The notes under the pieces: generated by a model
What the model saw: only the letters and a program-made list of their open reading frames with translations
What the model was told of the DNA's origin: nothing
Database searches by the model: none
Made by a program: the position numbers and the translations under genes
Part shown: piece by piece, positions 11,172 through 54,130 of the stretch
Layout of the letters: the number at the start of each line of letters is the position of its first letter
How positions within the stretch are numbered: position 1 is the stretch's first letter
Assembly: GCA_000004985.1 (NCBI GenBank)
Contig: GG738854.1
Reading direction: 5' to 3' (one strand)
Source of the DNA: Naegleria gruberi
Taxonomy: Eukaryota
DNA: 64,000 bases

Positions 11172-14100
11172 TTGTTGTTGGTATTTAGCCACCCATTCAA
11201 AAAAAACAACGACAAACACTCGGTGTTCCATCATCACACATCTTTTGTTGAATTATTTGGGGATGATGATAGTGCCACTATGGTTTTGAAACGACATCAT
11301 GATGAAGAACAGAATTATCTTAATCAGGATGGGAAGAAATTAAAGATATTATTGTTGTGGACAATGATAATGATGATTTGTTGTTATTCATCAATGTGTT
11401 TTAATATATTTGTGAATGGTACTTCCGAAGAATTATCCATACTTCCAATAATTGCATCATCATCTTCACCACCAATAAGAAGAATATCAACAAAACCAAC
11501 ATTAGCATTGGATCAAACCATTAGACAATTAGTGAATGAAATTATACATGAAGACCTCACCTATTCATCTTCCTTATCATCACCATCCACAAGAACATCA
11601 TTATCATCATCATCTCTATTAGGAACATCATCAGATGAAGAAAGTGTTACTGTCTATGTGAATCCACAGAATGGTTCTGATAGTATTGGATGTTCATCGG
11701 ATGCCATTACTTCATGTAAGACAATTCCATTCTCTTTGGATGATTTAAAAACAAATAGGAAAATTGTGAATACGAAACAGATTCTTCTCTATTTGCAGGC
11801 ATCTATTGAAGAGAAAGATGTTGGAGATGCTATTAATTGTAAAGGGTTTAATTTTACTGGAATTAACTTTTCTGAGGTTAAAATTTCAGCAAATAGTCCA
11901 GTAATTGTTAATTGTAATTATGTTTCGAATTGGAGTTCTAGTTTTAGATTTAATTTGACAATGAGTAATATAGTGTGGAGGAATTTTAATATTCCAATAG
12001 TTTCCACAATGGACTCAATTGTCATTGAAAATTCAGTGATTCAGAATGTAACCATTTCCATGTCAAAATTTCTCAATATTCGAAACTGTAGAGTTACCAG
12101 TGATGGAGCTGATTTTAGTATTCTTCATATGAATGATATTGAAAATGTGATAATAAGCCAGACGTCATTTGAGAAGAAAGCTATTGGATATTCCATTTCT
12201 AGAATTTCCTCAAATATTTATATTGAAAATATTAGTGTGGATAATAGTTTATTGATCTTTTATGGATTTGTTAGCATGGTAGATGGTTCTTCAGTGAAAA
12301 ATTCTCTCACTTTAGTGGATAGCAGATTCACAGCAAGTACAGTGAGGATTATTGAATTTAGTGAAATCTTTTTCAGGAATAATACTCATTCAGGAAATAT
12401 TCTACCTACAAACATTCCAAATATTGTCTCGTCATACTTTTCAGAGTATAGCTATTCTGGATTTTCTGTGAGCTGCCTCACTGTGAGAAGTGATTTGAGG
12501 GTGAGGAATGTAACAGTGGAGAATATGAAATTATATGGAGGAGCACTGATTGAAGGCCCAGGTCTGTATGCTCGATTCTTTGATTCCATTTTCAAAAATA
12601 ATAAGAATAACCTTGGAGGAGGAGCTATTCATGTGAGGACTGTTTTCAGAGTTTTCATTGAAAATGTCCAATTCCTTTCTAATAGTGTAGATTCTTCTAA
12701 TGGAAAATTAGGTTTGGATTACATTGGAGGTGGAGCCATTTATCAATACAGAAGTGTCCTCATCACCAGTGGCTGCTACTTTGACAGTAACAATGGTGGT
12801 ATATTTGGTGGAGCCATCTTTAGTTTCTTACCACTTGAATACTTTTCATTGGATGATAATTTCGTTTCCAATACTGCTGGTTATGGAGGAGGTTATGCCA
12901 GTATGGATACCATTTCCATTTCTCAAATTGCATTTACAGATACCTCCATGATAGGTAATAATTGTTCAAATTCTGGAGGTGCCATTTTCACAATGAATTC
13001 TGAAATTACATTCAGTTATGGATCTTCAGATTTCAAATCCATTTCTGGAAATAATGCAAATCTTTTGGGAGGTGGTATTTTCTTTATTAATTCAAAGCCA
13101 TCATTTGCATATAGAAGAATATCCAAAATATTTGTGAATAATTATTGTAAGGCATCTCCTTATTTATCAGATTATTCTTCATTTGCAACTGAAATTCAAA
13201 CAACTCCATCTGATTTTACCCTTAAACCTGGTACTGCGGATATTTTACTTTTTGATTTATATGACATGTTTGGAAATCAAGTTCCTTTCACGTCTAATTT
13301 AGAGATTGAAATGTCTTCAGATGATGCAATCTATCCAGAGATTAGTTCAATGAACTCACTTGCAACTGGTTTCCAAAAAAGATTTACTTTTACAGTTTAT
13401 TTGAAAACAAACCGATTTCTAACATTTAACACAACTGTGAATATGGTTATTGGTTTGACTAATATTCCATACGAAAAGAATTTGAATTTAAAGGTGAAAT
13501 TACAGAGTTGTTCGAGTGCAGAATCTCTAGTAGTCAACCTTTTCAAGAGTTCTACATCTAGGGTTTATTATGAATGTGGACCAAATGCAGCCTTGGTAGC
13601 TTCCTTAGTTGTCCTGGCATCTTGCTGTTGTGGAGCGTGTTGCCTTATTTTCTGTGTCTTTATTACTTATAAATTTGTAAAGATGAGAGGTCAGGTTGCA
13701 CTTTTAGCAAAGAAGGAAAAAGCTGAGGAAGAATTGACTAAAAAACTGATGGATCTCCAAACACTTTATAATAGTGAATTGGAAAATAAGCACTCATACA
13801 AGGAATGGCTTATTAAATTGGATGATGTGGAATTGATTAAGAAAGTTGGTGAGGGAGGAGGTGGAATTGTCTATTTGGCTAATTGGAAACGAGTTCCAGT
13901 TGCTTTGAAAACTATCAAGATTGAAGATGAGGATTTGGATTCTAATGATTTTGAACATGAGGCATCACTTTTGAGCTCAATTAGACATCCACATATTGTA
14001 ACATTTTATGGTAAGTTTACAATAATTTGGACCCATATCAAACAATTTTATTAGGAGTTTGTTTATCTAATTCTGCCAAATTCATGGTTACTGAATTTAT

Positions 14101-15020: not shown

Positions 15021-17375
15021 TTATTGAGCCTTATAGATAAATACTTGATCATAACTTCCAACGAAGAGTTCACCTGTTTCATCTAAAATATCTACTGCTT
15101 GAATTGGAATATCATTAACTAAAATCTTATCATAACCTTCCAAATTGACCAAACGAACACTCTTGTGATAATCATTCAACAAAATATTTCCAGTAGCTCT
15201 ATCAAGTCTCATTGAATCTGTATGTGCTCCAGCATTGTGTGTCTTTAAGATTCTTCCTTTAGAATTAATGAGATAGATTGTTGAACTATCTCCAATGTAG
15301 AATTGATCTTCAACGCCAGAATACAAGACAGAGCAGAAGCAATAATAACGAGATTTTCCTTGGGAATCTTCTGAAATGACTTTTCCACTCTGACCATCCT
15401 TTGTACACATTTGGATAATTTGAGTTCCACAACCTTCCGTCAAGCACATAATTGAAGAATCTAATTGGTTGACTGCAATGTAACGTGGAATGAATTTAAA
15501 TCCTTTTTGTTCTCTGTTATGATAATCAACTTTCCACATGATATCTCCTTCATAACTGAATTTGTAAAATGCATCAGTAGCCACAACGATTGTATCCTCA
15601 TTGTAATCTATATCAATATCATAAATACTTTGACAATCTCCAACTGGAACCTTAATTGTCTTGATGTGTCTCTTTGTTGTCAAATCAAAGATGTGAACTT
15701 TCAATCTTTCAGCCACAAGCAAATGCTTTTTCTTTTGATGAACAACCATGGCAATCAATCCTGAAAATTTGAACTCACCACAATCTTCTTCATCACCCAA
15801 TATAGCTAATCTCTTCATATTTCTATTTGGAGTGACCTTTGGTGGTTGAGTAACTGGTAATGGTCTAATTCCCATTTGAGAAACCAAGTGAGCTTCACCA
15901 GATTTGTAAATTACAATCTTATTGTGGAATGAGACGTATAATTCACCCAATTGATCAGAAACTTCACAACAACTTGTGCCACCTTCTTCAGCAAAACTCT
16001 TTGAATAACCTTCCATATTAACAAACTTGATGCATTTGTGATAATCACTCAAAATGAGACAACCAGTGTAATGGTCAACTCTCAATGAATCAGGAGTAGC
16101 TTCCAATTGATGAGTTTTCAAAATTTTACCAGTTGAGTCAATCAAGTAAATTGTTGAACTATCTCCAATATAAAATTGATCTCCATAACCAGAATAACAA
16201 ATAGAATGGAAGCAATAATAACGAGATTTTCCTTGAGAATCTTCTGAAATGACCTTTCCACCTTTTCCATCCCTTGTCATGATTTGCAATACTTGAGTTC
16301 CACTTCCTTCAGTTGCACACAACACAGACGAATCAGCTTGGTTGACTGCAATATAACGTGGCACAAATTTCATTCCCTTTTCTTCCATATTTTGTGAATT
16401 GAGTTTCATTATCAAATCTCCTTCAAAATTAAGCTTGAAAAGCGAATAATCTGCAATGACATAAAAAGTGTCATCATTGTAATCAATGTCAATATCAGTT
16501 GGATAACTGCCACTTCCCCATAAATGGTTACAATTCAAAGTTTTCAAATTTCTCTTGGTGTTCAAATCGAAAATGTGAATATATTTCCAATCAGCAACGA
16601 AAAGCCAATTTCTCTTTTGATGGACAACCATTGCATAGACATTTTGAAATTTGAATTCGCCACAATCTTCTTCTTCGCCCAAAGTTGCAATTTTTTGATA
16701 GGTTAAATTACGTGGAGTTGGTTTTTGTGGAATACTTGTTGGTAAATGTTGTGGAATTTGAGTTTGTGGTTGACCAAATGGTTGTTGTTGAGGTGGAGGA
16801 ACACCAGTTTGAGGTGGAAATTGTCCATAAGGAATTTGAGTTTGTGGTTGTCCATATGGTTGTGGTTGACCTGGAATGCCAGTTTGAGGTGAATATTGTG
16901 GTTGACCATAAGGTTGATTTACGTATTGTGGAGGATATTGTTGAGGAGGAACATTTGGTTGACCATAATATCCTTGTTGAGGTGGATATTGTTGATTAGT
17001 TTGTGGTTGACCAAATGGTTGAATTTGTGGTGAATATTGACCAACAACATTTGGTTGACCAGTTGGAGGAGGAATTTGAGAAGTACCAATTGGTTGTTGA
17101 CCTACTTGTGGTGAATATTGTGGTTGTCCATAATATCCTTGTGGAGGATATTGTGGTTGTCCATATGGTTGTGCATAACCTCCATAATAACCTCCTTGTG
17201 GTTGTTGTTGTTGTGGAGGATATCCATAACCTTGTTGTGGTGGATATTGTGGTTGACCATATGGTTGTTGTTGTGGATGGGGTGGGTATTGGTAATAGCC
17301 TTGTTGTTGTTGTTGTGGAGGTTGGTGTTGACCAGTAGTTGGTTGAGAGTTTGTTGGTGGTGTGTTAATTGACAT
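15021..17375 (-). CDS. Prion-like P/Q/Y-rich N-terminus plus two tandem NHL-like propeller domains (784 aa)
   Basis: Single ORF. The first ~230 aa are degenerate GQPQYPPQ-type repeats. Two ~270-aa units follow, each starting LG(E/D)EEDCGEFKF and ending ...VSEDSQGKSRYYCF...DQFYIGDSSTIYLI. Both units are homologous to the B-box paralog propellers. Confidence 0.55.
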   Translation of the reverse strand: MSINTPPTNSQPTTGQHQPPQQQQQGYYQYPPHPQQQPYGQPQYPPQQGYGYPPQQQQPQGGYYGGYAQPYGQPQYPPQGYYGQPQYSPQVGQQPIGTSQIPPPTGQPNVVGQYSPQIQPFGQPQTNQQYPPQQGYYGQPNVPPQQYPPQYVNQPYGQPQYSPQTGIPGQPQPYGQPQTQIPYGQFPPQTGVPPPQQQPFGQPQTQIPQHLPTSIPQKPTPRNLTYQKIATLGEEEDCGEFKFQNVYAMVVHQKRNWLFVADWKYIHIFDLNTKRNLKTLNCNHLWGSGSYPTDIDIDYNDDTFYVIADYSLFKLNFEGDLIMKLNSQNMEEKGMKFVPRYIAVNQADSSVLCATEGSGTQVLQIMTRDGKGGKVISEDSQGKSRYYCFHSICYSGYGDQFYIGDSSTIYLIDSTGKILKTHQLEATPDSLRVDHYTGCLILSDYHKCIKFVNMEGYSKSFAEEGGTSCCEVSDQLGELYVSFHNKIVIYKSGEAHLVSQMGIRPLPVTQPPKVTPNRNMKRLAILGDEEDCGEFKFSGLIAMVVHQKKKHLLVAERLKVHIFDLTTKRHIKTIKVPVGDCQSIYDIDIDYNEDTIVVATDAFYKFSYEGDIMWKVDYHNREQKGFKFIPRYIAVNQLDSSIMCLTEGCGTQIIQMCTKDGQSGKVISEDSQGKSRYYCFCSVLYSGVEDQFYIGDSSTIYLINSKGRILKTHNAGAHTDSMRLDRATGNILLNDYHKSVRLVNLEGYDKILVNDIPIQAVDILDETGELFVGSYDQVFIYKAQ
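15024..16700 (-). repeat. Internal tandem duplication of a ~270-aa propeller-like domain (copy 1 ~16700-15900, copy 2 ~15830-15024)
   Basis: The two halves align residue by residue. Examples are LGEEEDCGEFKFQNVYAMVVHQKRNWLFVADWKYIHIFDLNTKRNLKT against LGDEEDCGEFKFSGLIAMVVHQKKKHLLVAERLKVHIFDLTTKRHIKT, and KFVPRYIAVNQADSSVLCATEGSGTQVLQI against KFIPRYIAVNQLDSSIMCLTEGCGTQIIQM. Confidence 0.55.
16701..17372 (-). repeat. Low-complexity coding repeat (P/Q/Y/G-rich, degenerate octapeptide GQPQYPPQ units)
   Basis: Direct inspection of the translation. The antisense frame gives artefactual V/E-rich ORFs (16685-17338 +). Confidence 0.6.
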
Positions 17376-20645: not shown

Positions 20646-23600
20646 TTATTTCTTGTTCTTTCTTTTAACAAAAATGCAAACGACAACAATTAAAGCAATA
20701 ATTGTACCAATGACACACAATCCACCAACACTACCAACAATGGCAGCAATCAATACAGTATTATCTTGTAGAATGGCTGCATCTTCCTTGTTTGGTTGAC
20801 TTGTTGCTTTTTTGTAATTTTGGTCAATTACTGAAAAGGATGTCAAATGATTTGTGTTACATTTGATTGACAATGTTACGGTGACATTTCCATCGGCAAG
20901 TTGCTGAGTAATGATTTGATTTTGAATTTCAGTTTCCAATCCATCTGATTTCCATTCTTTTGAATTTTCATCCAAGTAAACACATGAAATATTCAATTTT
21001 TCTATATTTGGTAGAGTTAATGTTACATTTTCAAAGGAGAATGAAATTGGTTGTTGCAAATTTTGGACTGTAATCTTTTCATTTGAATTTGATTTCAATA
21101 AAACTAATGAAACAACTTGAGAAATTACAGCAGTTTCGGATTTCTTACTTTCAGATAGAGAAGAAACTACTTGAACTGAATCATTCTTCAGAGAAATTTC
21201 AGAACTTTGAAGATATTGAGAAATGATTGATGGAAGTGAAATTGAAATGGATGGAGTTGACGAAAATTGAATAGTCTTTGAATCTAATTGAGTGATATTC
21301 GAAACTATGCTTGTTTGAGATTCAGTTGTGTTGAAAGATGAAGATGAGCAAACAGTTGAAGTTGGATAAAGAGTACAATAATCAGCAATAGAACAATCCA
21401 ATCCTGAATATCCAGTCAAGCAAGAGCAACTATTCAATGCTTGACAAGTTCCCTTACCAGAACAAACTTTCGAATCATCAAACGAAACTCCATAACATGT
21501 TGTAATGTTACACACCAATCCACCCGATGGTAATTGATTCATAATATATCCAACTGGACAATAAGGAGTCAACATTCTAATTCTCATATTCATGGTATCA
21601 GCAAATACAATTCTGCCATCTTTCAAAGTTGATAATCCTGTTGGATTGTTCAACAATGAATTCTTTGCATTGGAAGAATCTCCATTGAAACCTGCTTGGA
21701 AAGGTTTTCCTGCAATTAAGGTGATATTTCCAATCAAGTCAACCTTTCGAATAACATTATTATTGGTATCTGCAATAATCACTTCTCCATTTGGTAAATA
21801 AGCAACTGAGCTTGGGTTATTGAGATAGGATTGAGTTGCCAATTCATTTTCTGGCATTGAAACAATACCTATATTAGTTCCCTTTCCTGCAATAGTTGTC
21901 ACTTTGCCTTTTCCAGAAATATCTGTCTTTCTAATTTTGTTATTTCCTGAATCGGTAAATAGAATTTGATTATTAAGAATTCTAATATCATTAACAAGAT
22001 TAATATTTGTCTTATTGGCAAAATTATCTCCATTATCAGTGTAATAATAAGCACCAACCACTGAATCAATTAATCCACTTGAAAATGAAACCTTTCGAAT
22101 TCTATAATTTCCCTTATCGGAAAGGTATAGATCTGTATCAGTAAGGGCCATAGACGAAACAGTTGACAGCTCAGAATTGACAGCTAAACCTCCATCTCCA
22201 ATTCCACCAGCTATCGTAACAACCTGTCCAGACGAAACCTTTCTAATCAAATACACATCGACAAAATAAACTTCACCATTCCAATAAACTACACATTGAG
22301 GAACGGCAATACTTGTGGACAAAGCAGGTCCATCACCAGTTGTGGCCATATAGGACACTAGTCCAGCAATAGTCGAAACCATATTCGAACCATAAATCAT
22401 TCGCTTAATGCCATGAGTAGACGGACTGTCAAAGTACAAATCTCCGTTCGGAGCGAATGAAATTGCAGAAACTCCGCCAATATTTGTTGCATTGGCTAAA
22501 CTTGTGGCAGAAAGTGATTGACCACCTCCAATTACTGTATAGACCTTTCCATCTTGTGAATTAACTCTTCTAATGAGATATTTTCCAGTACTACCACCAA
22601 TGTCAACAAAATACAATTCTAAACTAATTGGATGAATAGCTAAACCTCTTGGATAAACTGAGGTGGAAGTGGCATTGAATCCATCTGCAGTGAAGGCGGA
22701 AGATCCTGTTCCAATAACTGTGTAGATTTTACCTGTGCTGGCATCAATCTTTCTAATTCTGTAATTCTGGTTTTCTTTTTAAAAATTATATTAGAAATAG
22801 TTTTGAATAAACTTACCTGAATAGAAAATATCACCATTACTTGCATTAACGCAAATACCAGATGGATAATTCATATTTGTGGAGAGCGCAGACAATCCCT
22901 CTCCATTATATGTGGTATTTCCTGTTCCAGCAATTGTTGTAATATTTCCAGAGACGAAACTCAACTTTCTAATTCGATTGTTGGAAGATTCTGTAATTAA
23001 CAAATCACCATTTGGTGTGAAAGCTAGAAAACCTGGTCCATTTAACTTGGCTTTCAATGCTGGTCCATCTACATATCCTGCTGAACCAGTTCCTGCTACA
23101 GTGGAGATGACACCTTTCGAATCAATCTTTCGAATAGTGTGACTGCCCTTATCACTGATGAAAACTTCACCACTTGTTGAGATTGCTATTCCTTCTGGGC
23201 TTGACAATCTAGCTGCAGTAGCTGGATATCCATCTCCAGAGCTATAAGCTTGTGAACCAGCAAAAGATGAAATAAGCTTATTAGAATCGGTTAGTTTCTT
23301 AATTCCAATAGTGGTACCAATGTAAATATCACTTGAGGATTCTGATTGAGTAACTGAAATGGGAGTATAAAGCGAAGTTAAATTTCCCAATTTTCCATCA
23401 GTGTCCAATTCGATAATTCCAGTTCCAGCCACACGGTCAACCAATGAATTTCCATAATTAGCAACTGAATTAAGTTTTAAAACAACTCCAACTGAACTAT
23501 CCACTACCAACAATTCATCTCTTTTAGAATTATAAAATGTAGATACTGGATTCAAAAGTGAAATATTCGAAACATTTCCTGAAAGTACTTGATATCTTAT

Positions 23601-24967
23601 TGAGCCATCTCCTGCAACTGTATTAATATTTCCAAGTACCAAGTCGATTTTTCTAATTCTATAGTCAGCAAAATCTGAAACATATAAACTATTTCCATAA
23701 ATAGCTAATCCAGATGGATAGGTAAAACGAGCATTGAGAGCACTACCTCCATCTCCGCTGAATCCAACAACTCCTGCATTGTTGGCAATGACAGTTTTAA
23801 CACCATTAGAAATTTTGATAACTTGACCTTTTGTCAAGCTGAGAGCAAATAAATTACCATTCGAATCAAAAACAATCGCTCCAGGAGAAACAATAGAGAC
23901 GTAGGTCAATAATGTTCCATTACTTGCCACGTAACGAATCACATTATTATTTATATCTTAACAATATTAGAAATAGTTTCGAATAAAACTTACCAGAGAA
24001 GTACATCTCACCTTTTAAATATTAGAAATACTGTCAGTGTGTAGAATAAACTTACCTGTTACTGGATGAAAAGCAATTCCATATGCAGTTTTAATACTAG
24101 CAGTGACAGCTGGCGTGCCATCTGGACTATTTCCAAGTTGTCCATTTCCAACAACATTATAAAAGGTATCATTCACAATCTTTCTAATATTATTGTTATC
24201 ACAAATGAAAATTTCATCTTTTGGCGAAACTGCAATACACACAGGATAGGATAATCTAGCCGAAAGTGCAGGAACGCCACTTGTCGTCAAAGATCCACCT
24301 CCTGCTATTGTAATCATATTGAACTCATTAATAGTTGAGTTGAAAAAAACCTTCTTCACTCTATTCATCAATCCACACTACCAGATAAGCTTCAATCACC
24401 CAAGCAAAAACTGGTGTACCGCCACTGGTTTCAGTCTGTGTTAACTTTTCCGCCACTTACTTCGGATACATCCCCACATCAGTCCGCCATAGGCAATAAG
24501 CAAGAATCGCTACACTAGTTTTTAATAGCTTACCTGGTAGTGGTAATGAAAACTTCACCTTTCGAATTGATTGCTACTCCATATGGATTAGTCAGAGAAT
24601 CATTGGCGAAAGCCAAACTATCTGAACCAACACCTGCTTGGTAATTTGGTGCTCCAGCAAAATAATGTGAAATTCCACTATTCGAATCCAAGTATCTCAC
24701 TTGATGATTACCCGATTCTGCATAATAAATATTACCGTTTTTCTTGTCAACTGCCAATCCATAAGGTCTATACATTCCAACATTGGTTGCCTTCATGCCA
24801 TCTCCAATTTGTCCTCCCAATATAGTTTCAAGAGAATACTCAACTGGTCTACTTTTTTGTGCATGAACTAGAAATAAATGAGCGATTAGTTGGAGCGATA
24901 ATACAAGTGCAAGTGCACGAAATAACATATTGGAAGTAGTGGTTGTTGACTTTCGTCTTGTAAACAT
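20646..24967 (-). CDS. NHL-repeat receptor-like type I membrane protein (~1341 aa); exons 24967-24534, 24360-24056, 24011-23994 (micro-exon), 23956-22817, 22774-20646
   Basis: A signal peptide (MLFRALALVLSLQLIAHLFLVHA) is followed by about 12 NHL blades. Each blade has the hydrophobic-x-D-x-x-N-x-x-IR(K) signature, for example YYAESGNHQVRYL, CDNNNIRKI, SDFADYRIRKI, SDKGSHTIRKI, ESSNNRIRKL, DTNNNVIRKV and DTMNMRIRML. An EGF-like module follows (CSGKGTCQALNSCSCLTGYSGLDCS), then a Ser/Thr-rich stalk, one transmembrane helix (LIAAIVGSVGGLCVIGTIIALIVVVCIFV) and a KRKNKK tail. The exon/intron model keeps phase through four GT-AG introns of 173, 44, 37 and 42 bp. Confidence 0.65.
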
Positions 24968-25662
24968 TTTTTTTTCTTCGCTACTAGTAGGAAACGATAA
25001 CAACTAAACTTGGTGTGTGTGAAATTGAGAGATATGTTCCAGTACAGAAAAAGTGTTGGGTTGGAATGGGAAACCATGTCCTGGAAAAGAAGTATCAACA
25101 CTATGCGTTGAAACACGGTAAGATATTGCAAACTCAATGAAGAAGGGCTTTTTTATCTAACGTCAGCAAAAAGTCATAACTCAATTGTTAGTAATCTTAC
25201 TAACATTTTTTTCGTAGCCGTAGTACTTGGTAGTATATATTACAATGCTTCATGAATGCCTTTTGCAATAATATTTCCATCAAGAAATTAGTTAAGGATA
25301 TGTAGAGATAGTAATGGACTGTACACTTTTGTAATTAGAAAGGAAGATTCATCAACAATATTTTACCAACAGCCAGTAAGCACAATACAACGTGGCGAAG
25401 TCAAAGGACGTGATGAAAAAAACAAAAGAAAAAGAAGGCGGGAAAAAAATCCTTGCAACCTCACTTCTTACCATCATCACGCTACATCAAAGCTGGTAAA
25501 GTATCGGAGTGAATGAACAATATGCAGGCTTCTGTTTAGTTTCTTGCCAGCCATGTTCTTCATCCTTTGCTTCCTGTTGAAAGTGGTATTATCAACAAGT
25601 TGTCAAATTCACCTTTCAACCTTTGAATTTTGTTTTTTCCGTTCAGATTTCAATTAAAAAAA
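24968..25662. promoter_or_regulatory. Divergent intergenic region between the NHL receptor-like gene and NHL-BTB copy A; 25048-25662 is repeated at 26886-27496
   Basis: The two flanking genes are head-to-head. The upstream ~250 bp is also conserved (~80% identity, inverted) at 53843-54130, upstream of copy C. Confidence 0.35.
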
Positions 25663-26835
25663 TGTCTTCACTTGCTACCAGTGCACAACTGAATTCTCCT
25701 TTTGGTGTTTTTGTTTCATCAAATAATGAAGTTTATATTGCTGATTATGGTAATCAAAGAATTAGAAAAATATTAAAAAATGGAAATATTGTAACAATTG
25801 CTGGAAATGGAACTGCTGGATTCAGAGGTGATAATGGTCCTGCAACAAATGCACAACTGTATAATCCTTATAGCGTTTTTGTTTCATCAAATAATGAAGT
25901 TTATATTGCTGATTTTAGTAATCATAGAATTAGAAAAATATTAGAAAATGGAAAAATTGTAACAATTGCTGGAAATGGAACTGGTGGATTCAGTGGTGAT
26001 AATGGTCCTGCAACAAATGCACAACTGAATAATCCTTATAGCGTTTTTGTTTCATCAAATAATGAAGTTTATATTGTTGATTATAATAATCATAGAATTA
26101 GAAAAATATTAAAAAATGGAAATATTGTAACAATTGCTGGAAATGGAACTGGTGGATTCAGTGGTGATAATGGTCCTGCAACAAATGCACAACTGAATAA
26201 TCCTATGGGTGTTTTTGTTTCATCAAATAATGAAGTTTATATTGCTGATTATTATAATCATAGAATTAGAAAAATATTAGAAAATGGAAATATTGTAACA
26301 ATTGCTGGAAATGGAACTGCTGGATTCAGTGGTGATTCACCTTTTGATATTAGAACGTATCCTCATATTGGAAATAAGTTATTAACTGGAAATGGTAACT
26401 TACATTCTAAAATAGAATTTCATAATTTGAAAAAACATTCAAGAGATGAATTATTTGGATTGCCAATTTATGGATTCATTCCCCTCATTGAAAAAACTTC
26501 ACCAAAATTTAGTAACATTTTGAAGAATGAAAAGATACTTTGTTTGATGAGTTCATCACAACAAGAAATTATTCAAAAATTAATTGACTCTTTGATATAC
26601 GATAAGAATAAGGTAAAGTTTAACAAAGAAGAAATGTTGGATGTTTTATTCATTTTGGGTTTATTTAAGAATGGTGAATTTATTGATTTGAAAAGATCAT
26701 TAACAAGTGAATTTGTGAACTCACTCACATTAGAAAATCTTACTTTCAAATGGGAAACAATTGAAAATTTACTCAAAATTTGCAAGGAGGAATTCAATGT
26801 TCAAAATTACATTCTTGATCATTTGAATAACTATG
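25048..26835 (+). repeat. Tandem duplication unit 1 (promoter plus NHL-BTB gene)
   Basis: 25048-25662 is ~99% identical to 26886-27496, differing only by indels, e.g. ggaatggg against ggatggg. The coding parts are also near-identical. Confidence 0.7.
25663..26835 (+). CDS. NHL-repeat plus BTB/POZ family protein, copy A; the 3' end is lost in the assembly gap
   Basis: Start MSSLATSAQLN. Four near-identical 57-aa NHL units (NAQLNNPYSVFVSSNNEVYIADYNNHRIRKILENGNIVTIAGNGTGGFSGDNGPAT) are followed by a linker (KKHSRDELFGLPIYG...). The ORF runs directly into the N run. By comparison with copies B and C the missing part should hold the BTB domain. Confidence 0.6.
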
Positions 26836-26885
26836 NNNNNNNNNNNNNNNNNNNNNNNNNNNNNNNNNNNNNNNNNNNNNNNNNN
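26836..26885. other. Assembly gap (50 N) inside a tandem duplication
   Basis: A literal run of n characters. It is flanked by the truncated copy A and the re-start of the duplicated upstream sequence. Confidence 0.95.
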
Positions 26886-29538
26886 AAAGTGTTGGGTTGG
26901 ATGGGAAACCATGTCCTGGAAAAGAAGTATCAACACTATGCGTTGAAACACGGTAAGATATTGCAAACTCAATGAAGAAGGGCTTTTTTATCTAACGTCA
27001 GCAAAAAGTCATAACTCAATTGTTAGTAATCTTACTAACATTTTTTTCGTAGCCGTAGTACTTGGTAGTATATATTACAATGCTTCATGAATGCCTTTTG
27101 CAATAATATTTCCATCAAGAAATTAGTTAAGGATATGTAGAGATAGTAATGGACTGTACACTTTTGTAATTAGAAAGGAAGATTCATCAACAATATTTTA
27201 CCAACAGCCAGTAAGCACAATACAACGTGGCGAAGTCAAAGGACGTGATGAAAAAAACAAAAGAAAAAGAAGGCGGGAAAAAAATCCTTGCAACCTCACT
27301 TCTTACCATCATCACGCTACATCAAAGCTGGTAAAGTATCGGAGTGAATGAACAATATGCAGGCTTCTGTTTAGTTTCTTGCCAGCCATGTTCTTCATCC
27401 TTTGCTTCCTGTTGAAAGTGGTATTATCAACAAGTTGTCAAATTCACCTTTCAACCTTTGAATTTTGTTTTTTCCGTTCAGATTTCAATTAAAAAAATGT
27501 CTTCACTTGCTACCAGTGCACAACTGAATTCTCCTTTTGGTGTTTTTGTTTCATCAAATAATGAAGTTTATATTGCTGATCAAAGTAATAAAGAATTAGA
27601 AAAATATTAGAAAATGGAAATATTGTAACAATTGCTGGAAATGGAACTGCTGGATTCAGAGGTGATAATGGTCCTGCAACAAATGCACAACTGTATAATC
27701 CTTATAGCGTTTTTGTTTCATCAAATAATGAAGTTTATATTGTTGATTATAATAATCATAGAATTAGAAAAATATTAAAAAATGGAAATATTGTAACAAT
27801 TGCTGGAAATGGAACTGGTGGATTCAGTGGTGATAATGGTCCTGCAACAAATGCACAACTGAATAATCCTATGGGTGTTTTTGTTTCATCAAATAATGAA
27901 GTTTATATTGCTGATTATTATAATCATAGAATTAGAAAAATATTAGAAAATGGAAAAATTGTAACAATTGCTGGAAATGGAACTGGTGGATTCAGTGGTG
28001 ATTCACCTTGGTCCTGCAACAAATGCTCAACTGAATAATCCTTATAGCGTTTTTGTTTCATCAAATAATGAAGTTTATATTGTTGATTATAATAATCATA
28101 GAATTAGAAAAATATTAGAAAATGGAAATATTGTAACAATTGCTGGAAATGGAACTGGTGGATTCAGTGGTGATAATGGTCCTGCAACAAATGCACAACT
28201 GAATAATCCTATGGGTGTTTTTGTTTCATCAAATAATGAAGTTTATATTGCTGATTATTATAATCATAGAATTAGAAAAATATTAGAAAATGGAAATATT
28301 GTAACAATTGCTGGAAATGGAACTGCTGGATTCAGTGGTGATTCACCTTTTGATATTAGAACGTATCCTCATATTGGAAATAAGTTATTAACTGGAAATG
28401 GTAACTTACATTCTAAAATAGAATTTCATAATTGAAAAAACATTCAAGAGATGAATTATTTGGATTGCCAATTTATGGATTCATTCCCCTCATTGAAAAA
28501 ACTTCACCAAAATTTAGTAACATTTTGAAGAATGAAAAGATACTTTGTTTGATGAGTTCATCACAACAAGAAATTATTCAAAAATTAATTGACTCTTTGA
28601 TATACGATAAGAATAAGGTAAAGTTTAACAAAGAAGAAATGTTGGATGTTTTATTCATTTTGGGTTTATTTAAGAATGGTGAATTTATTGATTTGAAAAG
28701 ATCATTAACAAGTGAATTTGTGAACTCACTCACATTAGAAAATCTTACTTTCAAATGGGAAACAATTGAAAATTTACTCAAAATTTGCAAGGAGGAATTC
28801 AATGTTCAAAATTACATTCTTGATCATTTGAATAACTATTGTATTGAATATGCTGTTGTTCAAATGAGGACTAAAGAAGGAAACACTGTATTACCGACTC
28901 TTCCAATAATTATGAGAAATGGTGTTGCCATTTTTTCAAAAATGATCATTACTAAACCAACTGCAATTAATATTGAGGAAACAATTGAGATTAAACCACA
29001 AACAATTGAATCATTATATAATGACAAGAAAACAAGTGATGTGAAAATCAAAATGGGACAAAACAAATACTTATATTGTCACAAAACTGTATTGAGTTCA
29101 TCAAGTACATTGTTTAATGCATTATTTGACAGTGGATCTTGTTTCAGTGATTTAAGTGATGATGGAATATTCACACCTGACGAATCAGAAGATTTAGAAT
29201 TATTGGAAATTGTGATCAAACATTGTTATGGAATTTCAATTGACAAAATTGATGCTGTTAAAATTATTGGATTACTTGATATGGCAATGAAACATGAAAT
29301 TCAATATCTGGTCGATTATTGCAAGAATAACTTTAATCTATCCATTGATAATTACTTTACAATACTTGAAGCATGTGAAAAATATCTTGATTTACAACCA
29401 TTTGAGCAATTTATGAGAGATATTATCAAATTTAGCATTACCAACAGAAAACAACTTTTCAAGGATCGCAATAGAATTTCCAACTTACCTGAAAAAGTTT
29501 GGCAAGAAATGGTCTTCAAGTTTTCACAGGACTTTTGA
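26886..29538 (+). repeat. Tandem duplication unit 2 (promoter plus NHL-BTB gene copy B)
   Basis: As for unit 1. Confidence 0.7.
27497..29538 (+). pseudogene. NHL-repeat plus BTB/POZ protein, copy B; at least three frame disruptions (apparent pseudogene or assembly/indel errors), with the BTB-containing part 28432-29538 intact
   Basis: A 1-nt deletion plus divergence at ~27583-27612 leads to a TAG. An internal junction at ~28000-28012 fuses the end-of-array sequence (ggtgattcacctt) to a mid-repeat sequence (ggtcctgcaacaaatgc). At ~28427 the T run is one T shorter (cataattgaaaaaac) than copy A (cataatttgaaaaaac), shifting the frame in front of the BTB ORF. The BTB motif itself is clear: DVKIKMGQNKYLYCHKTVLSSSSTLFNALFDSG...LELLEIVIKHCYG...IIGLLDMAMKHEIQYLVDYCKNNF. 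Confidence 0.5.
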
Positions 29539-43878: not shown

Positions 43879-46309
43879 ATGAGTCAAGGAGGAAAGACAC
43901 CATCTTTGGGTGGAACCAACAAGTTGCTCATTCCTAGTTATATTCAAAGAAAGGGACAAATGGGAAAGAGTGATGTTGATGATAAATTGGAAAAAATCAT
44001 CCATGCTATTGATCAAATCTATCAAGAAAATCAATCCCAATTATCTTTCCAAGTTCTTTATACGTAAGTTGTTATTGTTTCTATAGAAAAAGGAGATGAT
44101 TTACCTTGATTCGTGTTATTGTTAATTATTCCATATTTTGTTGATTTGATGGCCTTTTCTCCACTTTCCATCATTTTAATACAACACACAATATGATCAA
44201 CAACAAAAACATGATGATCTACACAACAATAATGATAGATCGGGCTACCAAATCGTTCTTCACAAAAACGGAGACTCATTATATGATGCTGTCAAGAACA
44301 AGCTCAGCGAATACATTCAAGGTGTTAGAGAAAAGACTATGGAATTCACTGATGATGGATTCTTGAAGGAACTTTTAAAACAATGGGAAAAGCACAGAAC
44401 ATCCGTAAGCATGGTCAGAGATATTCTCATGTATATGGATCGTAACTATGTTAAACAATTTAAAAAGACACCAGTTTATGAACTTGGTATCAAACTTTTT
44501 GGTACTGAAGTTTTCCACAAATCTACTTTGGAAAGAATTCAAAGACTTATCATGGATATTATCCTCAAGGACAGATGTGGTGAAGTTGTTGCCGATCGTT
44601 TCTTAATGAAGAGTCTTACACAAATGATGATTGAAATTTCCAAGAAGGATATCTATGAAACTCACTTTGAAAAGAAGCTTTTAGATGAAACTAGACAATT
44701 CTATACCAAGGAATCCAATGAATATTTCGAATCTTCTACTGCTACTGATTATCTTAAGAAGGTTACTCTTCGTTTGAAGGAAGAAAGAGAAAGAGTTGAC
44801 AGATGTATGGACCCTGATACTAAACCAAAAATTGAAGCTGTTCTCAAGAATGTAATGATTGATAAGTATAAGCATAGAATTATTGAAAAGGAAGGATCGG
44901 GATGTATTGCCATGCTTCAAACTTGGAAGGTTGATGATTTACGTCTTGTATTCGATGTCTTGTCACTTGTTGAAGGTGCTTTGGATCCATGTGTTGATTT
45001 GGTTGAAAACTTTTGTAGAAGTGAAGGTTATCAAATTGTTAAAGATAAGAATAAGGAAGAAAATCCAGTCGATTTTATTGCTGACTTGATTGTTTTGAAA
45101 GAAAAGTATGAAGGTTTGCTTGATCGTGCCTTCTCTGTCAAGAAGGGTAAACAATCTGCCAGAGATTCTAAATTCCAAGCTTGTGTTAAGAAAGCTTTTG
45201 ATGATACTATTAATGCCAATGAAAGATTCCCTGAATTCTTGTCACTCTATGTTGACAGCAAGTTGAAGAAGGGTAAGACCCAAGTTAGTGAATCTGAATT
45301 TGATGTTCTCTTTGAACAAGTTATTACTCTCTTTAGACATTTGCGTGAAAAGGATATTTTCGAAAAGTATTACAAGACTCACTTGGCTAAGAGATTGCTC
45401 AATCAACGTTCACAATCTGATGATGCTGAAAAGGCCTTTATCGGTAAATTGAAACAAGAATTTGGTTATCAATTTACTGCCAAACTTGAAGGCATGTTTA
45501 ACGATATGAGACTTTCCAGAGAAACTAATGAATCTTTCAAGTCTTATATTGATAGATTTCCAAACAAGAAACCAGCTATTGATTTGTCTGTTCAAGTTTT
45601 GACAACTGGTTACTGGCCTGTTACTCAATCTATTGCAATTACAGTTCCAGAAACTATTGACAAGTCTGCAAATATTTTCAAGGAATTCTATATTGATTCT
45701 CACAATGGTAGAAAGCTTACATGGCAATACAATATGGGTAGTGCTGATATCAAGGCTAATGGTTATGATAAGAAGTATGAAATTAACGTTTCCACCTTCC
45801 AAATGGTTGTCTTGTTGTTGTTCAATGAAAAGGAAACTATTTCATATGGTGATATTTTGCAAACTACCAAGATTCCAATGAATGAATTGAAGAAGAACTT
45901 GCTTGCTTTGACTGTCAAGACCGCTACTCACCAAAAGTTATTGACTTCTAGCACTGATAAGACTTTGACTAAGGAATCTGTTTTTACTGTAAATAATGAA
46001 TTTGAAAGTAAGCTTATCAAGGTTAAGATTGCACCAATCGTTTTGAAGGAAACTAAGGAACAACAAGAAGAAACTAAACAAAAGATTGATGAAGAAAGAA
46101 AATGGCTTTTGGATGCCACAATTGTTCGTATCATGAAGGCAAGAAAGACCTTGGAACACAGAGACTTGGTCATTGAAGTTACTAAACAATTGCAACAAAG
46201 ATTTATGCCATCTCCTGACATGATTAAGAAGCGTATTGAAAGTTTGATTGAAAGAGAATATTTAGAACGTTCACAAGAGAGTCGTTCCAAGTACAACTAT
46301 GTAGCATAA
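43879..46309 (+). CDS. CUL3: Cullin (CUL3-like); exons 43879-44063 and 44239-46309, intron 44064-44238 (175 bp), ~751 aa
   Basis: The N-terminus LSFQVLYTSGYQIVLHKNGDSLYDAV matches human CUL3 [26 protein letters not shown], and MVRDILMYMDRNYV matches MIRDILMYMDRVYV. The C-terminal cullin-homology and neddylation region reads ...IVRIMKARKTLEHRDLV... Confidence 0.75.
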
Positions 46310-46408: not shown

Positions 46409-47662
46409 ATGTCAACACAAGATGTTCTCTGTTATGCATTTACATTTCTCGATTATTCACACGTAGGAATCTTGTGTCTCGTCTGCAAGGAATGGAACAT
46501 GATTGCAAGCTCAAATCGATTATGGGAATTTTACTTTCATCTTTTATCCAACAATCGGAGTGGAAAAACAAAAGTACCAACAGAAACCATCACCAATAAT
46601 CCCAAATTCTGGAAACACAAAATACGAGACAATTTTACAAACTACACTTGCAGAACCTCAAAGAGAATTGATCCGAGAAGTTCTTTACCAAGTTTATTGA
46701 AAGGAAGTTTTCCAGACAATTTTTCATCACTCTATTCTAGAATGAATTTGAGAAAACCATTCAAATTAGTTAGTACTACTTGGGAAGAGGAATTTAACAC
46801 CAATCAGACTTATTACAAGATGAGTGTGAAAATTAGTGGAATTGATTCACCATTGATTGTGAGATGGAGTACGATTAGCAGTAATTTTGGACTTTTTGAA
46901 TATAACTATTCCAAGCTGTTTTATTATTATTTTGCAATGGAGAAGGATGACTTGTTGAATGAAAATGAGTTTTTTGTGAAGGAAATGAATAGTGCAGATT
47001 TTGAAAATTTGGGAAAGAGTAATAGAGCTTTCCTTTTCAAATTTAATGGAAAGGCTAATCCAGGAAGCGTCTATGGAAAGGAATATTTGGTAAGGGAGAT
47101 TCTTGATTATTTGGTTCCAACTGTGAATTCATACCAAATGTCACCAATGAACTTCATTCCATATTGGTGTTTCTTATTCGATTTGATTATGTATTCTAAT
47201 GATTATCATAAGGAACTTTACAAACACTATCCTGCCATGATTTCCCATCCATCCGTATACAAATTCTTCTACCTGAAATACCAACCAAGAGTTGTAACAA
47301 TTACAAAATCTGCTCTGAATCAATTTTCCACCTATAAACCAGGCAATGAAACTGAAACGAAGCTCTTCAAATCCATCACAGAAAACCATGTTGAATCCAT
47401 TAATTTCGAATCAGAAAATAGAGAGCAACTCATGACAGGCATTCAAGGTTTGTACAAAATAATTGTTTCACGTCCCTCAAAGTTTTTCCCTCCCTTACCA
47501 CTCGCAAAAACAATTCAATATGATGAGAAGGAGGAATTTGAAATTAAGGCAAGCTATTTGGCAAGTGTTTACAAAATGTGTAAATATATGGATGAACATA
47601 TGGATTGGTATTTGGGAAGTAAACTTAGAAAATCATATCAAATTGATCTGTCTAATAAATAA
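46409..47662 (+). CDS. F-box-like domain protein
   Basis: The N-terminus LCYAFTFLDYSHVGILCLVCKEWNMIASSNRLWEFYF fits the F-box pattern (L..a...L......l.l.VCK.W..l.....LW). The rest is unassigned. Confidence 0.4.
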   Translation: MSTQDVLCYAFTFLDYSHVGILCLVCKEWNMIASSNRLWEFYFHLLSNNRSGKTKVPTETITNNPKFWKHKIRDNFTNYTCRTSKRIDPRSSLPSLLKGSFPDNFSSLYSRMNLRKPFKLVSTTWEEEFNTNQTYYKMSVKISGIDSPLIVRWSTISSNFGLFEYNYSKLFYYYFAMEKDDLLNENEFFVKEMNSADFENLGKSNRAFLFKFNGKANPGSVYGKEYLVREILDYLVPTVNSYQMSPMNFIPYWCFLFDLIMYSNDYHKELYKHYPAMISHPSVYKFFYLKYQPRVVTITKSALNQFSTYKPGNETETKLFKSITENHVESINFESENREQLMTGIQGLYKIIVSRPSKFFPPLPLAKTIQYDEKEEFEIKASYLASVYKMCKYMDEHMDWYLGSKLRKSYQIDLSNK

Positions 47663-53842: not shown

Positions 53843-54130
53843 TTTTTTAATTGTAATCCGAACGGAAACAACAAAATTCAAAGGATGAAAGGTGAATTTG
53901 TTGATACTTCATTCAACAGGAAGCAAAGGATGAGCAATAGACCCTAAGAAGAAAGCAACCAACATATGATGAGGAACATGGCAAGAAACTGAAAATATTG
54001 CCTGAATATTGGTCATTCACTCCGATACTTTACCTGACTTCAAAGCAACAGAGGAAATGCTATGATGAAGCGTATTACTCAAGATGAAGAATACACTGTA
54101 AATCCTACTTTGCTGAGAGTGGTGAAGCAT
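53843..54130. promoter_or_regulatory. Upstream region of copy C, homologous (inverted, ~80%) to the upstream region of copies A and B
   Basis: The reverse complement begins ggtaaagtatcggagtgaatga..., as at 25496-25517, and shares conserved blocks up to the ATG. Confidence 0.3.

What the first reader, a model, noticed from the sequence alone, without database searches (positions are those of the whole stretch)
20646..24967. Receptor-like type I membrane protein with ~12 extracellular NHL blades, an EGF-like module and a transmembrane helix, head-to-head with the cytosolic NHL-BTB family
A secreted or transmembrane NHL double-propeller is next to cytosolic NHL-BTB paralogs. The blade sequences differ: the receptor blades are diverse, the BTB-linked blades are homogenised. 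This suggests one ancient NHL lineage diversified into an extracellular sensor and an intracellular ubiquitin-adaptor branch at the same locus. NHL plus EGF plus transmembrane is reminiscent of teneurin-like ectodomains but far simpler.
Basis: partly seen in the sequence, partly recalled or inferred. Interest (0 to 1): 0.55.

Follow-up and report, generated by a model that had tools for sequence, protein, structure and literature searches.

The report
Naegleria NHL-propeller surface protein with GAIN domain

Summary
The window is Naegleria gruberi NEG-M. The five-exon minus-strand model (20646-24967, 1341 aa) reproduces exactly. All introns are GT..AG, and the model runs colinear with a paralog across every junction, including an 18-nt microexon. 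The public model, EFC47550.1/D2V6D1 (1170 aa), lacks the signal peptide and three blade segments.

Confirmed: a signal-peptide-like N-terminus, NHL repeats, one six-cysteine EGF-like module, one TM helix, a six-residue basic tail, divergent orientation to NHL-BTB genes, and diverse receptor blades versus homogenised BTB blades.

Corrected: there are 18 blades, not about 12, so probably three six-bladed propellers.

The gene belongs to a family of at least 30 in N. gruberi, N. lovaniensis and N. fowleri. All members have one TM segment, and some carry a cytoplasmic kinase.

Not supported: a shared local origin with the NHL-BTB genes.

Most likely it is an adhesion-type surface protein that self-cleaves into two fragments held together non-covalently. 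I rate it a new variant of a known kind, of moderate interest.

The parts
20646..24967 (-). Whole coding region of the five-exon gene, 1341 aa. Exons: 24967-24534, 24360-24056, 24011-23994, 23956-22817 and 22774-20646 (stop included).
   Evidence: Spliced translation has no internal stop and all introns are GT..AG. The model is colinear with paralog P0006 across all junctions at 46% identity. The public model EFC47550.1 is a shorter, defective version of it.
24860..24967 (-). Signal-peptide-like N-terminus, aa 1-36: MFTRRKSTTTTSNMLFRALALVLSLQLIAHLFLVHA, then QK.
   Evidence: It has a basic n-region and a hydrophobic core (Kyte-Doolittle 19-residue mean 2.04), with V-H-A at positions -3 to -1. 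Paralog P0006 has an equivalent N-terminus. SignalP was not available.
23994..24011 (-). 18-nt microexon encoding GEMYFS, the core strand of blade 4.
   Evidence: It is flanked by GT..AG introns of 44 and 37 nt. The same GEMYFS is present in paralog P0006. The public annotation skips it.
21561..24835 (-). NHL-repeat ectodomain, aa 45-1037: 18 blades of 40-61 aa, probably three six-bladed beta-propellers. The range includes the four introns.
   Evidence: Pfam NHL 1.2e-44 and TEN_NHL 7.1e-50. There are 18 I-R-K anchors and 18 blade-HMM domains. Blade-HMM counts (domains at domE<10) in family members: 6-8 in five members, 11-13 in seven, 17-19 in three; P0185 has 8 and P0171 has 5. The nearest solved relatives are six-bladed NHL propellers. 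The number of propellers is inferred.
21393..21497 (-). EGF-like module, aa 1059-1093: CYGVSFDDSKVCSGKGTCQALNSCSCLTGYSGLDC.
   Evidence: It has six cysteines in EGF spacing. Pfam EGF_2 gives E=4e-4 at 21.1 bits against a 22.1 cut-off. The homologous module passes the cut-off in paralogs P0125 and P0126. The cysteines are invariant in alignment A1.
20817..21338 (-). GAIN subdomain-B-like beta-sandwich, aa about 1112-1285, including the GPS motif.
20841..20849 (-). Predicted autoproteolysis site H1275-L1276 | T1277, within C-N-T-N-H-L-T-S-F-S-V-I-D.
   Evidence: L is invariant, and H and T are at least 90% conserved, across the 19 aligned family members. The site aligns to CSCNHL|TNFAVLM of ADGRL3. 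Cleavage itself is inferred.
20667..20756 (-). Single transmembrane helix, aa 1306-1335: VLIAAIVGSVGGLCVIGTIIALIVVVCIFV.
   Evidence: This is the highest hydropathy peak, Kyte-Doolittle 19-residue mean 3.12, and the only one besides the N-terminus. AF2 predicts it as a helix.
20649..20666 (-). Six-residue basic cytoplasmic tail, KRKNKK.
   Evidence: Direct translation. The positive-inside rule gives type I topology. There is no signalling domain.
25623..29538 (+). Neighbouring divergent tandem NHL-BTB genes. These are context, not part of the receptor.
   Evidence: Pfam NHL on 25623-26975 and 27968-28435, and BTB on 28432-29538. The blade repeats are 168 nt long and up to 99% identical. An N gap lies at 26836-26885.

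Best explanation
The locus encodes a type I single-pass surface glycoprotein of Naegleria gruberi. Reading from the N-terminus it has:
- a cleavable signal peptide;
- 18 NHL blades, probably three six-bladed beta-propellers, which form the ligand- or substrate-binding part;
- one EGF-like spacer;
- a GAIN subdomain-B beta-sandwich with an intact GPS site (CxTxHL|TSFSVID) 28 residues before the TM helix;
- one TM helix;
- a six-residue basic tail.

The architecture is shown. The following steps are inferred.
- During biogenesis the GAIN-B domain cleaves itself between L1276 and T1277.
- The large NHL-EGF N-terminal fragment then stays bound non-covalently to the last beta-strand, which belongs to the short membrane-anchored fragment.
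- Pulling on the NHL head, by substrate, prey or another cell, can detach or shed it.

On this reading the protein acts as a force-sensitive adhesion molecule. Because it has no cytoplasmic domain, any signal would have to pass through a partner. The kinase-bearing paralogs with the same ectodomain layout are candidates.
For: - Gene model: with colinearity to paralog P0006 across all junctions.
- Organism: neighbouring ORFs are exact N. gruberi NEG-M proteins.
- NHL, EGF and GPS by Pfam.
- 18 blades.
- Topology: only two hydrophobic segments, a basic tail, 21 N-x-S/T sequons and 18 cysteines.
- GAIN-B by sequence: 9 of the 12 PDB hits to the family profile are adhesion GPCRs, with ADGRL3 at E=1.6e-5, and HLT aligns to HLT.
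- Motif conservation: H, L, T and F of the GPS, one Cys pair and the Trp are invariant or nearly so in 19 family members.
- UniProt labels N. lovaniensis members 'GAIN-B domain-containing protein'.
- All 34 Naegleria-type members examined have at most one hydrophobic segment after the GPS (33 have exactly one; P0252 ends 3 residues after the domain), and four carry a kinase.
- That HL|T cleavage needs the GAIN fold, and that the fragments stay associated, comes from PMC3321182 and PMC13197933.
Against: - No expression, splicing or protein data were available.
- The helical GAIN subdomain A is absent or vestigial. Arac et al. found the whole GAIN domain necessary in latrophilin-1, although receptors with only 2-3 helices still cleave.
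- Only one of the two disulfides that hold the cleavage loop in adhesion GPCRs is present. The family has CxTxHLT instead of CxCxHLT, and the partner Cys after the Trp is also missing.
- For this protein alone the Pfam GPS score is below the gathering cut-off: 18.6-19.4 bits against 22.5.
- Paralog P0126 has a degenerate site (YSLERS), so cleavage is not obligatory in the family.
- The ligand and the biological role are unknown.
Confidence: 0.6

Rival explanations
1. The architecture is the same, but the GAIN-B domain does not cleave. It would serve only as a rigid membrane-proximal stalk, and the protein would be a stable, uncleaved adhesin or receptor.
For: There is no helical subdomain A and one of the two loop-fixing disulfides is missing. 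Some bona fide GAIN domains are uncleaved despite having the fold, such as BAI3 in PMC3321182 and GPR125 in PMC13631675. Paralog P0126 has lost HLT.
Against: H-L-T-x-F is invariant or nearly so in 17-18 of 19 members that otherwise share only 26-60% identity. That argues for selection on the catalytic motif itself.
Confidence: 0.25
2. One reading: the receptor and the adjacent NHL-BTB genes descend from one NHL gene that diversified at this locus, and they may work as a sensor and ubiquitin-adaptor pair.
For: The genes are adjacent and divergent, with about 0.7 kb between their start codons. Both carry teneurin-type NHL blades. Cross-identity between receptor and BTB-linked blades is 31%, against 25% among the receptor's own blades.
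Against: The NHL domain of the NHL-BTB genes scores 186-218 bits on its best domain against the fifteen top-ranked proteins, all bacterial or unnamed metagenome NHL proteins except N. gruberi P0169, but only 75 bits against the adjacent receptor, which ranks 151 of 165. The receptor family lies on many scaffolds and in three species. The NHL-BTB genes are a young tandem array whose truncated unit abuts the receptor's 5' end. One compartment is extracellular and the other cytosolic, so no direct interaction is expected.
Confidence: 0.07
3. The model is an annotation artefact. On this reading the ORFs belong to separate genes or to a decaying pseudogene.
For: No transcript evidence was available. 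The public model differs from this one. An ORF-style call on another N. gruberi assembly begins inside exon 4.
Against: There are five in-frame exons with canonical splice sites and no stop over 4 kb. Every junction restores a complete NHL blade and aligns without gaps to a paralog. A near-identical allele differs by only 4 residues in about 709.
Confidence: 0.05
4. It is a simplified teneurin homologue.
For: Pfam TEN_NHL, EGF_Teneurin and EGF_TEN match. The best PDB sequence hits include teneurin-like proteins at 2e-48 and teneurins 2-4.
Against: It has type I rather than type II topology. The NHL repeats are N-terminal to the EGF module rather than after it. No YD-shell, FN-plug, ABD or toxin domain was detected. 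A GAIN-B domain is present, which teneurins lack.
Confidence: 0.03

Closest known systems
GAIN domain of adhesion GPCRs (ADGRL3/latrophilin, BAI3, GPR126, CELSR1, CD97, GPR56)
   Same: - Significant profile-to-sequence similarity.
- The GPS motif C...W...G...CxxxHL|TxFxV sits immediately before the first TM helix.
- The tethered strand TSFSVID resembles the Stachel TNFAVLM.
   Different: - One TM helix instead of a 7TM domain.
- No helical subdomain A.
- One disulfide instead of two.
- No cytoplasmic signalling part.
- The N-terminal adhesion part is made of NHL propellers.
Polycystin-1 / sea-urchin REJ family (GAIN-containing non-GPCR membrane proteins)
   Same: A GAIN/GPS domain sits next to the membrane in a large adhesive ectodomain outside the GPCR class (PMC3321182, PMC13197933).
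   Different: No REJ, PLAT or PKD domains and no 11-TM channel-like part were detected.
Naegleria NHL-EGF-GAIN-B receptor kinases (e.g. N. gruberi D2VPM5 = P0169; P0171, P0193, P0248)
   Same: The ectodomain has the same logic (NHL blades, EGF modules, GAIN-B, single TM) and the GAIN-B domains are homologous.
   Different: They have many EGF repeats, a long extra middle region and a cytoplasmic Ser/Thr-type protein kinase. The window gene has only a six-residue tail.
Teneurins and bacterial teneurin-like proteins
   Same: NHL propeller and EGF modules of the same Pfam subtypes.
   Different: Opposite membrane topology and domain order. No YD shell or toxin domain. Teneurins have no GAIN domain.
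Mucin-type SEA-domain proteins (functional analogy only, from general knowledge)
   Same: A single-pass protein with a juxtamembrane self-cleaving module. That module yields two non-covalently bound subunits that can separate under force.
   Different: The fold and the cleavage chemistry context are unrelated. No sequence or structural similarity was found here.

Membership tests
NHL-repeat beta-propeller proteins (Pfam PF01436 / PF25021) | Tandem NHL repeats scoring above the Pfam cut-off | tested here: met
   NHL scores 148.6 bits against a cut-off of 20. TEN_NHL scores 170.4 bits against 27.1. There are 18 repeats.
NHL-repeat beta-propeller proteins (Pfam PF01436 / PF25021) | Blades close into six-bladed propellers | not tested
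This is inferred from 18 = 3 x 6. Family members have roughly 6, 12 or 18 blades, with two exceptions. The solved relatives are six-bladed.
EGF-like domain | Six cysteines in EGF spacing; Pfam EGF_2 above its cut-off | tested here: inconclusive
   The six-cysteine pattern is present and invariant in the paralogs. The score is 21.1 bits against a cut-off of 22.1 for this protein. Paralogs score 26.6 and 22.3, which pass.
GAIN domain (GPCR autoproteolysis-inducing domain) | GPS motif with H-L | T/S/C at the cleavage site | tested here: met
   The motif is C1271-N-T-N-H-L-T-S-F. It is conserved in the family and aligns to CSCNHLTNF of ADGRL3.
GAIN domain (GPCR autoproteolysis-inducing domain) | Subdomain B twisted beta-sandwich fold | tested here: met
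   [not shown]
GAIN domain (GPCR autoproteolysis-inducing domain) | Two conserved disulfides anchoring the cleavage loop (CxCxHL|T) | tested here: not met
   Only the pair equivalent to C801-C832 of latrophilin-1 is present. The positions equivalent to C820 and C834 are non-Cys in all 19 members.
GAIN domain (GPCR autoproteolysis-inducing domain) | Helical subdomain A (2-6 helices) N-terminal to subdomain B | tested here: not met
   Only about 18 residues separate the EGF module from the first strand. The model shows only two or three very short helices inside the sandwich region.
GAIN domain (GPCR autoproteolysis-inducing domain) | Position directly before the first TM helix | tested here: met
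   There are 28 residues between T1277 and the TM helix start.
GAIN domain (GPCR autoproteolysis-inducing domain) | Actual autoproteolysis | not testable with these tools
   This needs protein biochemistry.
Adhesion GPCR | Seven-transmembrane domain after the GAIN domain | tested here: not met
   There is a single hydrophobic segment after the GPS, here and in 32 of the other 33 Naegleria-type members; P0252 ends 3 residues after the domain.
Polycystin-1 / REJ family | REJ module, PLAT domain and multi-pass channel-like C-terminus | tested here: not met
   No such Pfam hits were found, and there is one TM helix.
Teneurin | Type II topology, EGF repeats before the NHL repeats, YD shell, C-terminal toxin-like domain | tested here: not met
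   There is an N-terminal signal peptide and a C-terminal TM helix. The NHL repeats precede the EGF module. No YD/Rhs or Tox-GHH hits were found.
Type I membrane protein | Cleavable signal peptide, one TM helix and a cytoplasmic basic flank | tested here: met
   Hydropathy and the -3/-1 rule were applied by hand. SignalP and TMHMM were not available, so this is a rule-based rather than a trained prediction.

The most novel reading that the evidence does not exclude
Naegleria, a discoban far from animals, may use GAIN-B autoproteolysis in single-pass receptors as a general force- or adhesion-sensing device. In this reading, removal of the NHL head would expose the tethered strand TSFxVID. That strand would then switch on a single-pass partner, namely the kinase-bearing paralogs with the same ectodomain. 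Tail-less members such as this gene would act as co-receptors or decoys. This would be a tethered-agonist system built on 1TM kinases instead of 7TM receptors. It would also place functional GAIN signalling near the root of eukaryotes.
Probability: 0.12. Interest if true: 0.75.

Novelty: new variant of a known kind. Interest (0 to 1): 0.5.

Why it matters
The literature I could search ties GAIN domains to adhesion GPCRs and polycystin-1-like proteins. It mentions only isolated ancient examples, in Dictyostelium and Tetrahymena, and dates the GAIN-7TM module to stem holozoans (PMC3321182, PMC12716839).

Here a whole family in a discoban amoeba carries a minimal GAIN-B domain with a conserved HL|T site. 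The domain lacks subdomain A and has one disulfide. It sits in front of a single TM helix, with NHL propellers as the adhesive head and, in some paralogs, a cytoplasmic kinase.

If cleavage occurs, the family would show three things:
- the smallest natural self-cleaving GAIN unit;
- that the module evolved independently of 7TM receptors;
- a tractable set of surface proteins relevant to adhesion and prey or host contact in Naegleria, including the pathogen N. fowleri.

Practically, the public model of this gene (D2V6D1) should be replaced. It lacks the signal peptide and breaks three blades.

Tried and rejected
- Exact look-up of the 1341-aa model: not in the collection. The public model was found only later, through cluster membership.
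- The look-up of encoding contigs for a neighbouring gene: nothing on record.
- First homologue search with the full protein: swamped by bacterial NHL giants. It served only to reveal the Naegleria paralog P0006.
- AF2 of the C-terminal module with a 3-sequence alignment: pLDDT 50. The Foldseek search on that model gave nothing significant, so I discarded it as uninformative. Repeating with 19 sequences worked.
- Third word-indexed homologue search, with the GAIN-B alignment: only 2 hits. The index is too coarse for this divergent family.
- Exhaustive profile search: the top 150 were dominated by multi-EGF proteins because the query contained the EGF module. The family had to be sorted out afterwards with a local GAIN-B HMM.
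- Literature searches for Naegleria with GAIN, GPS, adhesion GPCR or NHL: no paper found.
- Rejected readings: teneurin homologue, adhesion GPCR, polycystin-like protein and local co-origin with the NHL-BTB genes. The reasons are in the membership table and the rival explanations.
Full report
**Source and gene model**

Three neighbouring ORFs of the window are exact matches to Naegleria gruberi NEG-M proteins on a 665-kb scaffold: D2V6C9, D2V6D0 and D2V6D3. The window has about 33% G+C and short GTAAGT...AG introns.

The exons are 24967-24534, 24360-24056, 24011-23994, 23956-22817 and 22774-20646. They give 4026 nt, or 1341 aa, with no internal stop. The four introns are 173, 44, 37 and 42 nt, all GT..AG. 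The third exon is an 18-nt microexon encoding GEMYFS.

The exact 1341-aa sequence is not in the public protein collection. The annotated product of this locus is EFC47550.1 / XP_002680294.1 / D2V6D1 (NAEGRDRAFT_47033), 1170 aa. That model starts at internal Met58, so it has no signal peptide. It also skips three segments, and each skip breaks an NHL blade.

The five-exon model aligns to the N. gruberi paralog P0006 at 46% identity over 743 columns. There is no gap at any exon junction, the microexon peptide is conserved, and the N-terminus is equivalent. No transcript data could be consulted.

**What the protein contains**

Pfam gives NHL at 1.2e-44 and the teneurin-type NHL domain at 7.1e-50. 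It gives EGF_2 at 4e-4 (21.1 bits against a cut-off of 22.1). It also gives a sub-threshold GPS (GPCR proteolysis site) match at aa 1229-1282 (18.6 bits against 22.5).

The repeats have a recurring I-R-K anchor at 18 positions between aa 89 and 1029, spaced 40-61 residues apart. A blade HMM finds 18 units from aa 45 to 1037. So there are 18 blades, not about 12.

- Blade-HMM counts (domains at domE<10): 6-8 in five members, 11-13 in seven, 17-19 in three; P0185 has 8 and P0171 has 5.
- The nearest solved relatives are six-bladed NHL propellers: teneurin-like proteins, SOQ1, NHLRC2, teneurins and PknD.
- Three six-bladed propellers are therefore the likely arrangement. This is inferred, not shown.

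The EGF-like unit (aa 1059-1093) has six cysteines, which are invariant in the paralogs. The homologous unit passes the Pfam cut-off in both paralogs.

Only two segments exceed a Kyte-Doolittle 19-residue mean of 1.6:
- aa 14-36, with a basic n-region and V-H-A before Q37;
- aa 1306-1335, followed by KRKNKK and the stop codon.

The ectodomain has 21 N-x-S/T sequons. This is the signature of a type I membrane glycoprotein. It rests on rules applied by hand, not on SignalP or TMHMM.

**The missed domain**

The sequence just before the TM helix reads ...LNISCVYLDENSKEWKSDGLETE...VTLSIKCNTNHLTSFSVIDQNYKK.

An exhaustive profile search with the EGF-to-C-terminus module of the window protein and two paralogs found many proteins that match the whole module. 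I aligned 19 of them over the region from the EGF module to the C-terminus (26-60% identity to the window protein).
- Invariant: one Cys pair, a Trp, the Leu of HLT and the Asp of VID.
- At least 90% conserved: H, T and F of H-L-T-x-F.

Four lines of evidence identify the domain.
- A profile of this alignment searched against all PDB sequences returns 12 hits, 9 of them adhesion GPCRs. ADGRL3 scores 1.6e-5, ADGRG6 4.3e-5, ADGRG1 3.7e-4 and ADGRG3 9e-4. The alignment puts CkTsHLTsFaViD on CSCNHLTNFAVLM and extends about 90 residues upstream into the GAIN beta-strands.
- Pfam GPS matches 17 of the 19 members, best E=3.8e-7.
- With the 19-sequence alignment AlphaFold2 gives pLDDT 83, above 90 over most of aa 20-190 of the module, and an all-beta domain followed by a long TM helix.

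An earlier model built from three sequences was too poor to use.

UniProt already labels several N. lovaniensis members 'GAIN-B domain-containing protein'. The domain is therefore a GAIN subdomain B.

Two canonical GAIN features are absent family-wide.
- There is no helical subdomain A.
- Only the disulfide equivalent to C801-C832 of latrophilin-1 is kept. Both partners of C820-C834 are replaced, giving CxTxHLT, with no Cys after W...G.

**The family**

Look-ups place members in N. gruberi (D2V5G0, D2W3D8, D2VCH1, D2VCD3, D2VZH3, D2VSZ2, D2VYE8 and others, on many scaffolds), in N. lovaniensis and in N. fowleri. There are also unnamed environmental sequences.

A local GAIN-B HMM run over every protein fetched finds 34 Naegleria-type members. 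Thirty-three have exactly one hydrophobic segment after the GPS; P0252 ends 3 residues after the domain. Four long ones (P0169 = D2VPM5, P0171, P0193, P0248) continue into a cytoplasmic protein kinase domain. Pfam Pkinase scores 3e-51 and 2e-33 on the two I tested.

More distant multi-EGF proteins also match at about 1e-10. They have CxCxH[LT]T.F and 7-9 hydrophobic segments after it. This again links the Naegleria domain to canonical GAIN.

The closest paralogs of the window gene:
- P0125 is a partial protein, 59% identical in the C-terminal module, with HLTSF kept.
- P0006 and P0126 lie on the same scaffold and are probably one gene split by annotation.
- P0126 has a degenerate site, YSLERS.

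**Neighbourhood and the evolutionary claim**

The genes on the plus strand from 25623 are NHL-BTB genes (Pfam NHL and BTB). Another copy lies on the minus strand at 51636-53881. The receptor and the first NHL-BTB gene are divergent.

Receptor blades average 25% pairwise identity (range 5-42%). BTB-linked blades average 74% (54-91%) and form 168-nt DNA repeats up to 99% identical.

The idea of a common origin at this locus does not hold.
- In a phmmer search, the best single-domain match of the NHL domain of an NHL-BTB gene scores 186-218 bits against the fifteen top-ranked proteins. All of these are bacterial or unnamed metagenome NHL proteins except N. gruberi P0169.
- It scores 75 bits against the adjacent receptor, which ranks 151 of 165.

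The NHL-BTB genes look like a young tandem array. A 99-100% copy of the unit's 3' end and spacer (25059-25758, matching 26894-27593) lies 91 bp upstream of the receptor's ATG. It includes a relic C-terminal coding fragment at 25042-25140. An assembly gap (26836-26885) interrupts the first copy.

**Mechanism**

Shown: the exon structure, the domain order, the GAIN-B fold and homology, the conserved HL|T, the single TM helix and the minimal tail.

Inferred from what is established for GAIN domains (PMC3321182; PMC13197933):
- self-cleavage between L1276 and T1277 in the secretory pathway;
- the large NHL-EGF fragment then stays bound to the last strand (TSFSVID...), which is part of the membrane stub;
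- force on the NHL head could release it.

With a six-residue tail, the protein cannot signal on its own. It is most simply a mechanically releasable adhesin. It could also be a co-receptor or decoy for the kinase-bearing paralogs.

The main rival is that this reduced GAIN-B no longer cleaves and is only a stalk. Conservation of H-L-T-x-F across members that are otherwise highly divergent argues for the cleaving version. The missing subdomain A and the missing disulfide argue against it. I give about 0.6 to the cleaving version and 0.25 to the non-cleaving one.

**Comparison and novelty**

The protein works like the extracellular half of an adhesion GPCR or polycystin-1, but it is a member of neither. 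The 7TM, REJ, PLAT and multi-pass parts were looked for and are absent.

It shares NHL and EGF subtypes with teneurins, but it has the opposite topology and none of their other domains.

No paper in the searchable library links Naegleria with GAIN, GPS, adhesion GPCRs or NHL repeats. The literature places GAIN domains before Holozoa only through Dictyostelium and Tetrahymena examples, and dates the GAIN-7TM fusion to stem holozoans.

The gene itself is already in the databases as an uncharacterised protein, and automatic annotation has flagged GAIN-B in sister species. I therefore rate it a new variant of a known kind and of moderate interest. Its main value lies in the family-level picture and the corrected gene model.

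Noticed in passing
window 25042-25140 (+) and 25059-25758 vs 26894-27593: A 99-100% identical copy of the 3' end and spacer of an NHL-BTB array unit lies only 91 bp upstream of the receptor's ATG. It includes a relic coding fragment, ...GMGNHVLEKKYQHYALKHGKILQTQ*. The receptor's promoter space is therefore squeezed by a truncated array unit.
   Followed up: partly
window 26836-26885: A 50-N assembly gap lies inside the first NHL-BTB gene and removes its BTB domain from the ORF. The tandem array may be collapsed or mis-assembled here.
   Followed up: no
window 25667-26470 and 27501-28476 (+): Nine in-register copies of a 300-nt reference spanning 168-nt (56-aa) NHL blade units, 64-99% identical to the reference at the DNA level. 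They show very recent duplication or homogenisation within the NHL-BTB genes.
   Followed up: partly
window 51636-53881 (-): A further NHL-BTB gene copy lies on the opposite strand, about 22 kb from the array. NHL is on 53057-53881 and BTB on 51636-52742.
   Followed up: partly
window 44339-46309 (+) and 46409-47662 (+): A full-length cullin (Pfam Cullin 9e-172, with the neddylation domain) and an adjacent F-box protein lie in the same window as the BTB adaptor genes. Whether this cullin is the Cul3-type partner was not examined.
   Followed up: no
window 11172-14054 (+): A 960-aa ORF whose last 65 residues are the start of a protein kinase domain. The gene probably continues after an intron. 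It may be a receptor-type kinase, but I did not analyse its N-terminal part.
   Followed up: no
public record EFC47550.1 / D2V6D1 for window 20646-24967: The deposited 1170-aa model starts at internal Met58 and omits aa 138-188, 247-278 (microexon included) and 633-662 of the model supported here.
   Followed up: yes
proteins P0169 (N. gruberi D2VPM5), P0171, P0193, P0248 (not in the window): These are Naegleria receptor kinases with NHL blades, many EGF repeats, a long middle region, GAIN-B, one TM helix and a cytoplasmic Pkinase domain. I found no description of this architecture in the literature searched.
   Followed up: partly
protein P0126 (N. gruberi, scaffold of 331,721 bp): This paralog has YSLERS in place of HLTSF at its GPS, so it is probably a non-cleaving member. 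It shares a scaffold with P0006, and the two are likely halves of one gene split by annotation.
   Followed up: no
window 15021-17375 (-), D2V6C9: A 784-aa protein with only a weak, sub-threshold match to a Mal s 1-like beta-propeller family. It is otherwise uncharacterised.
   Followed up: no
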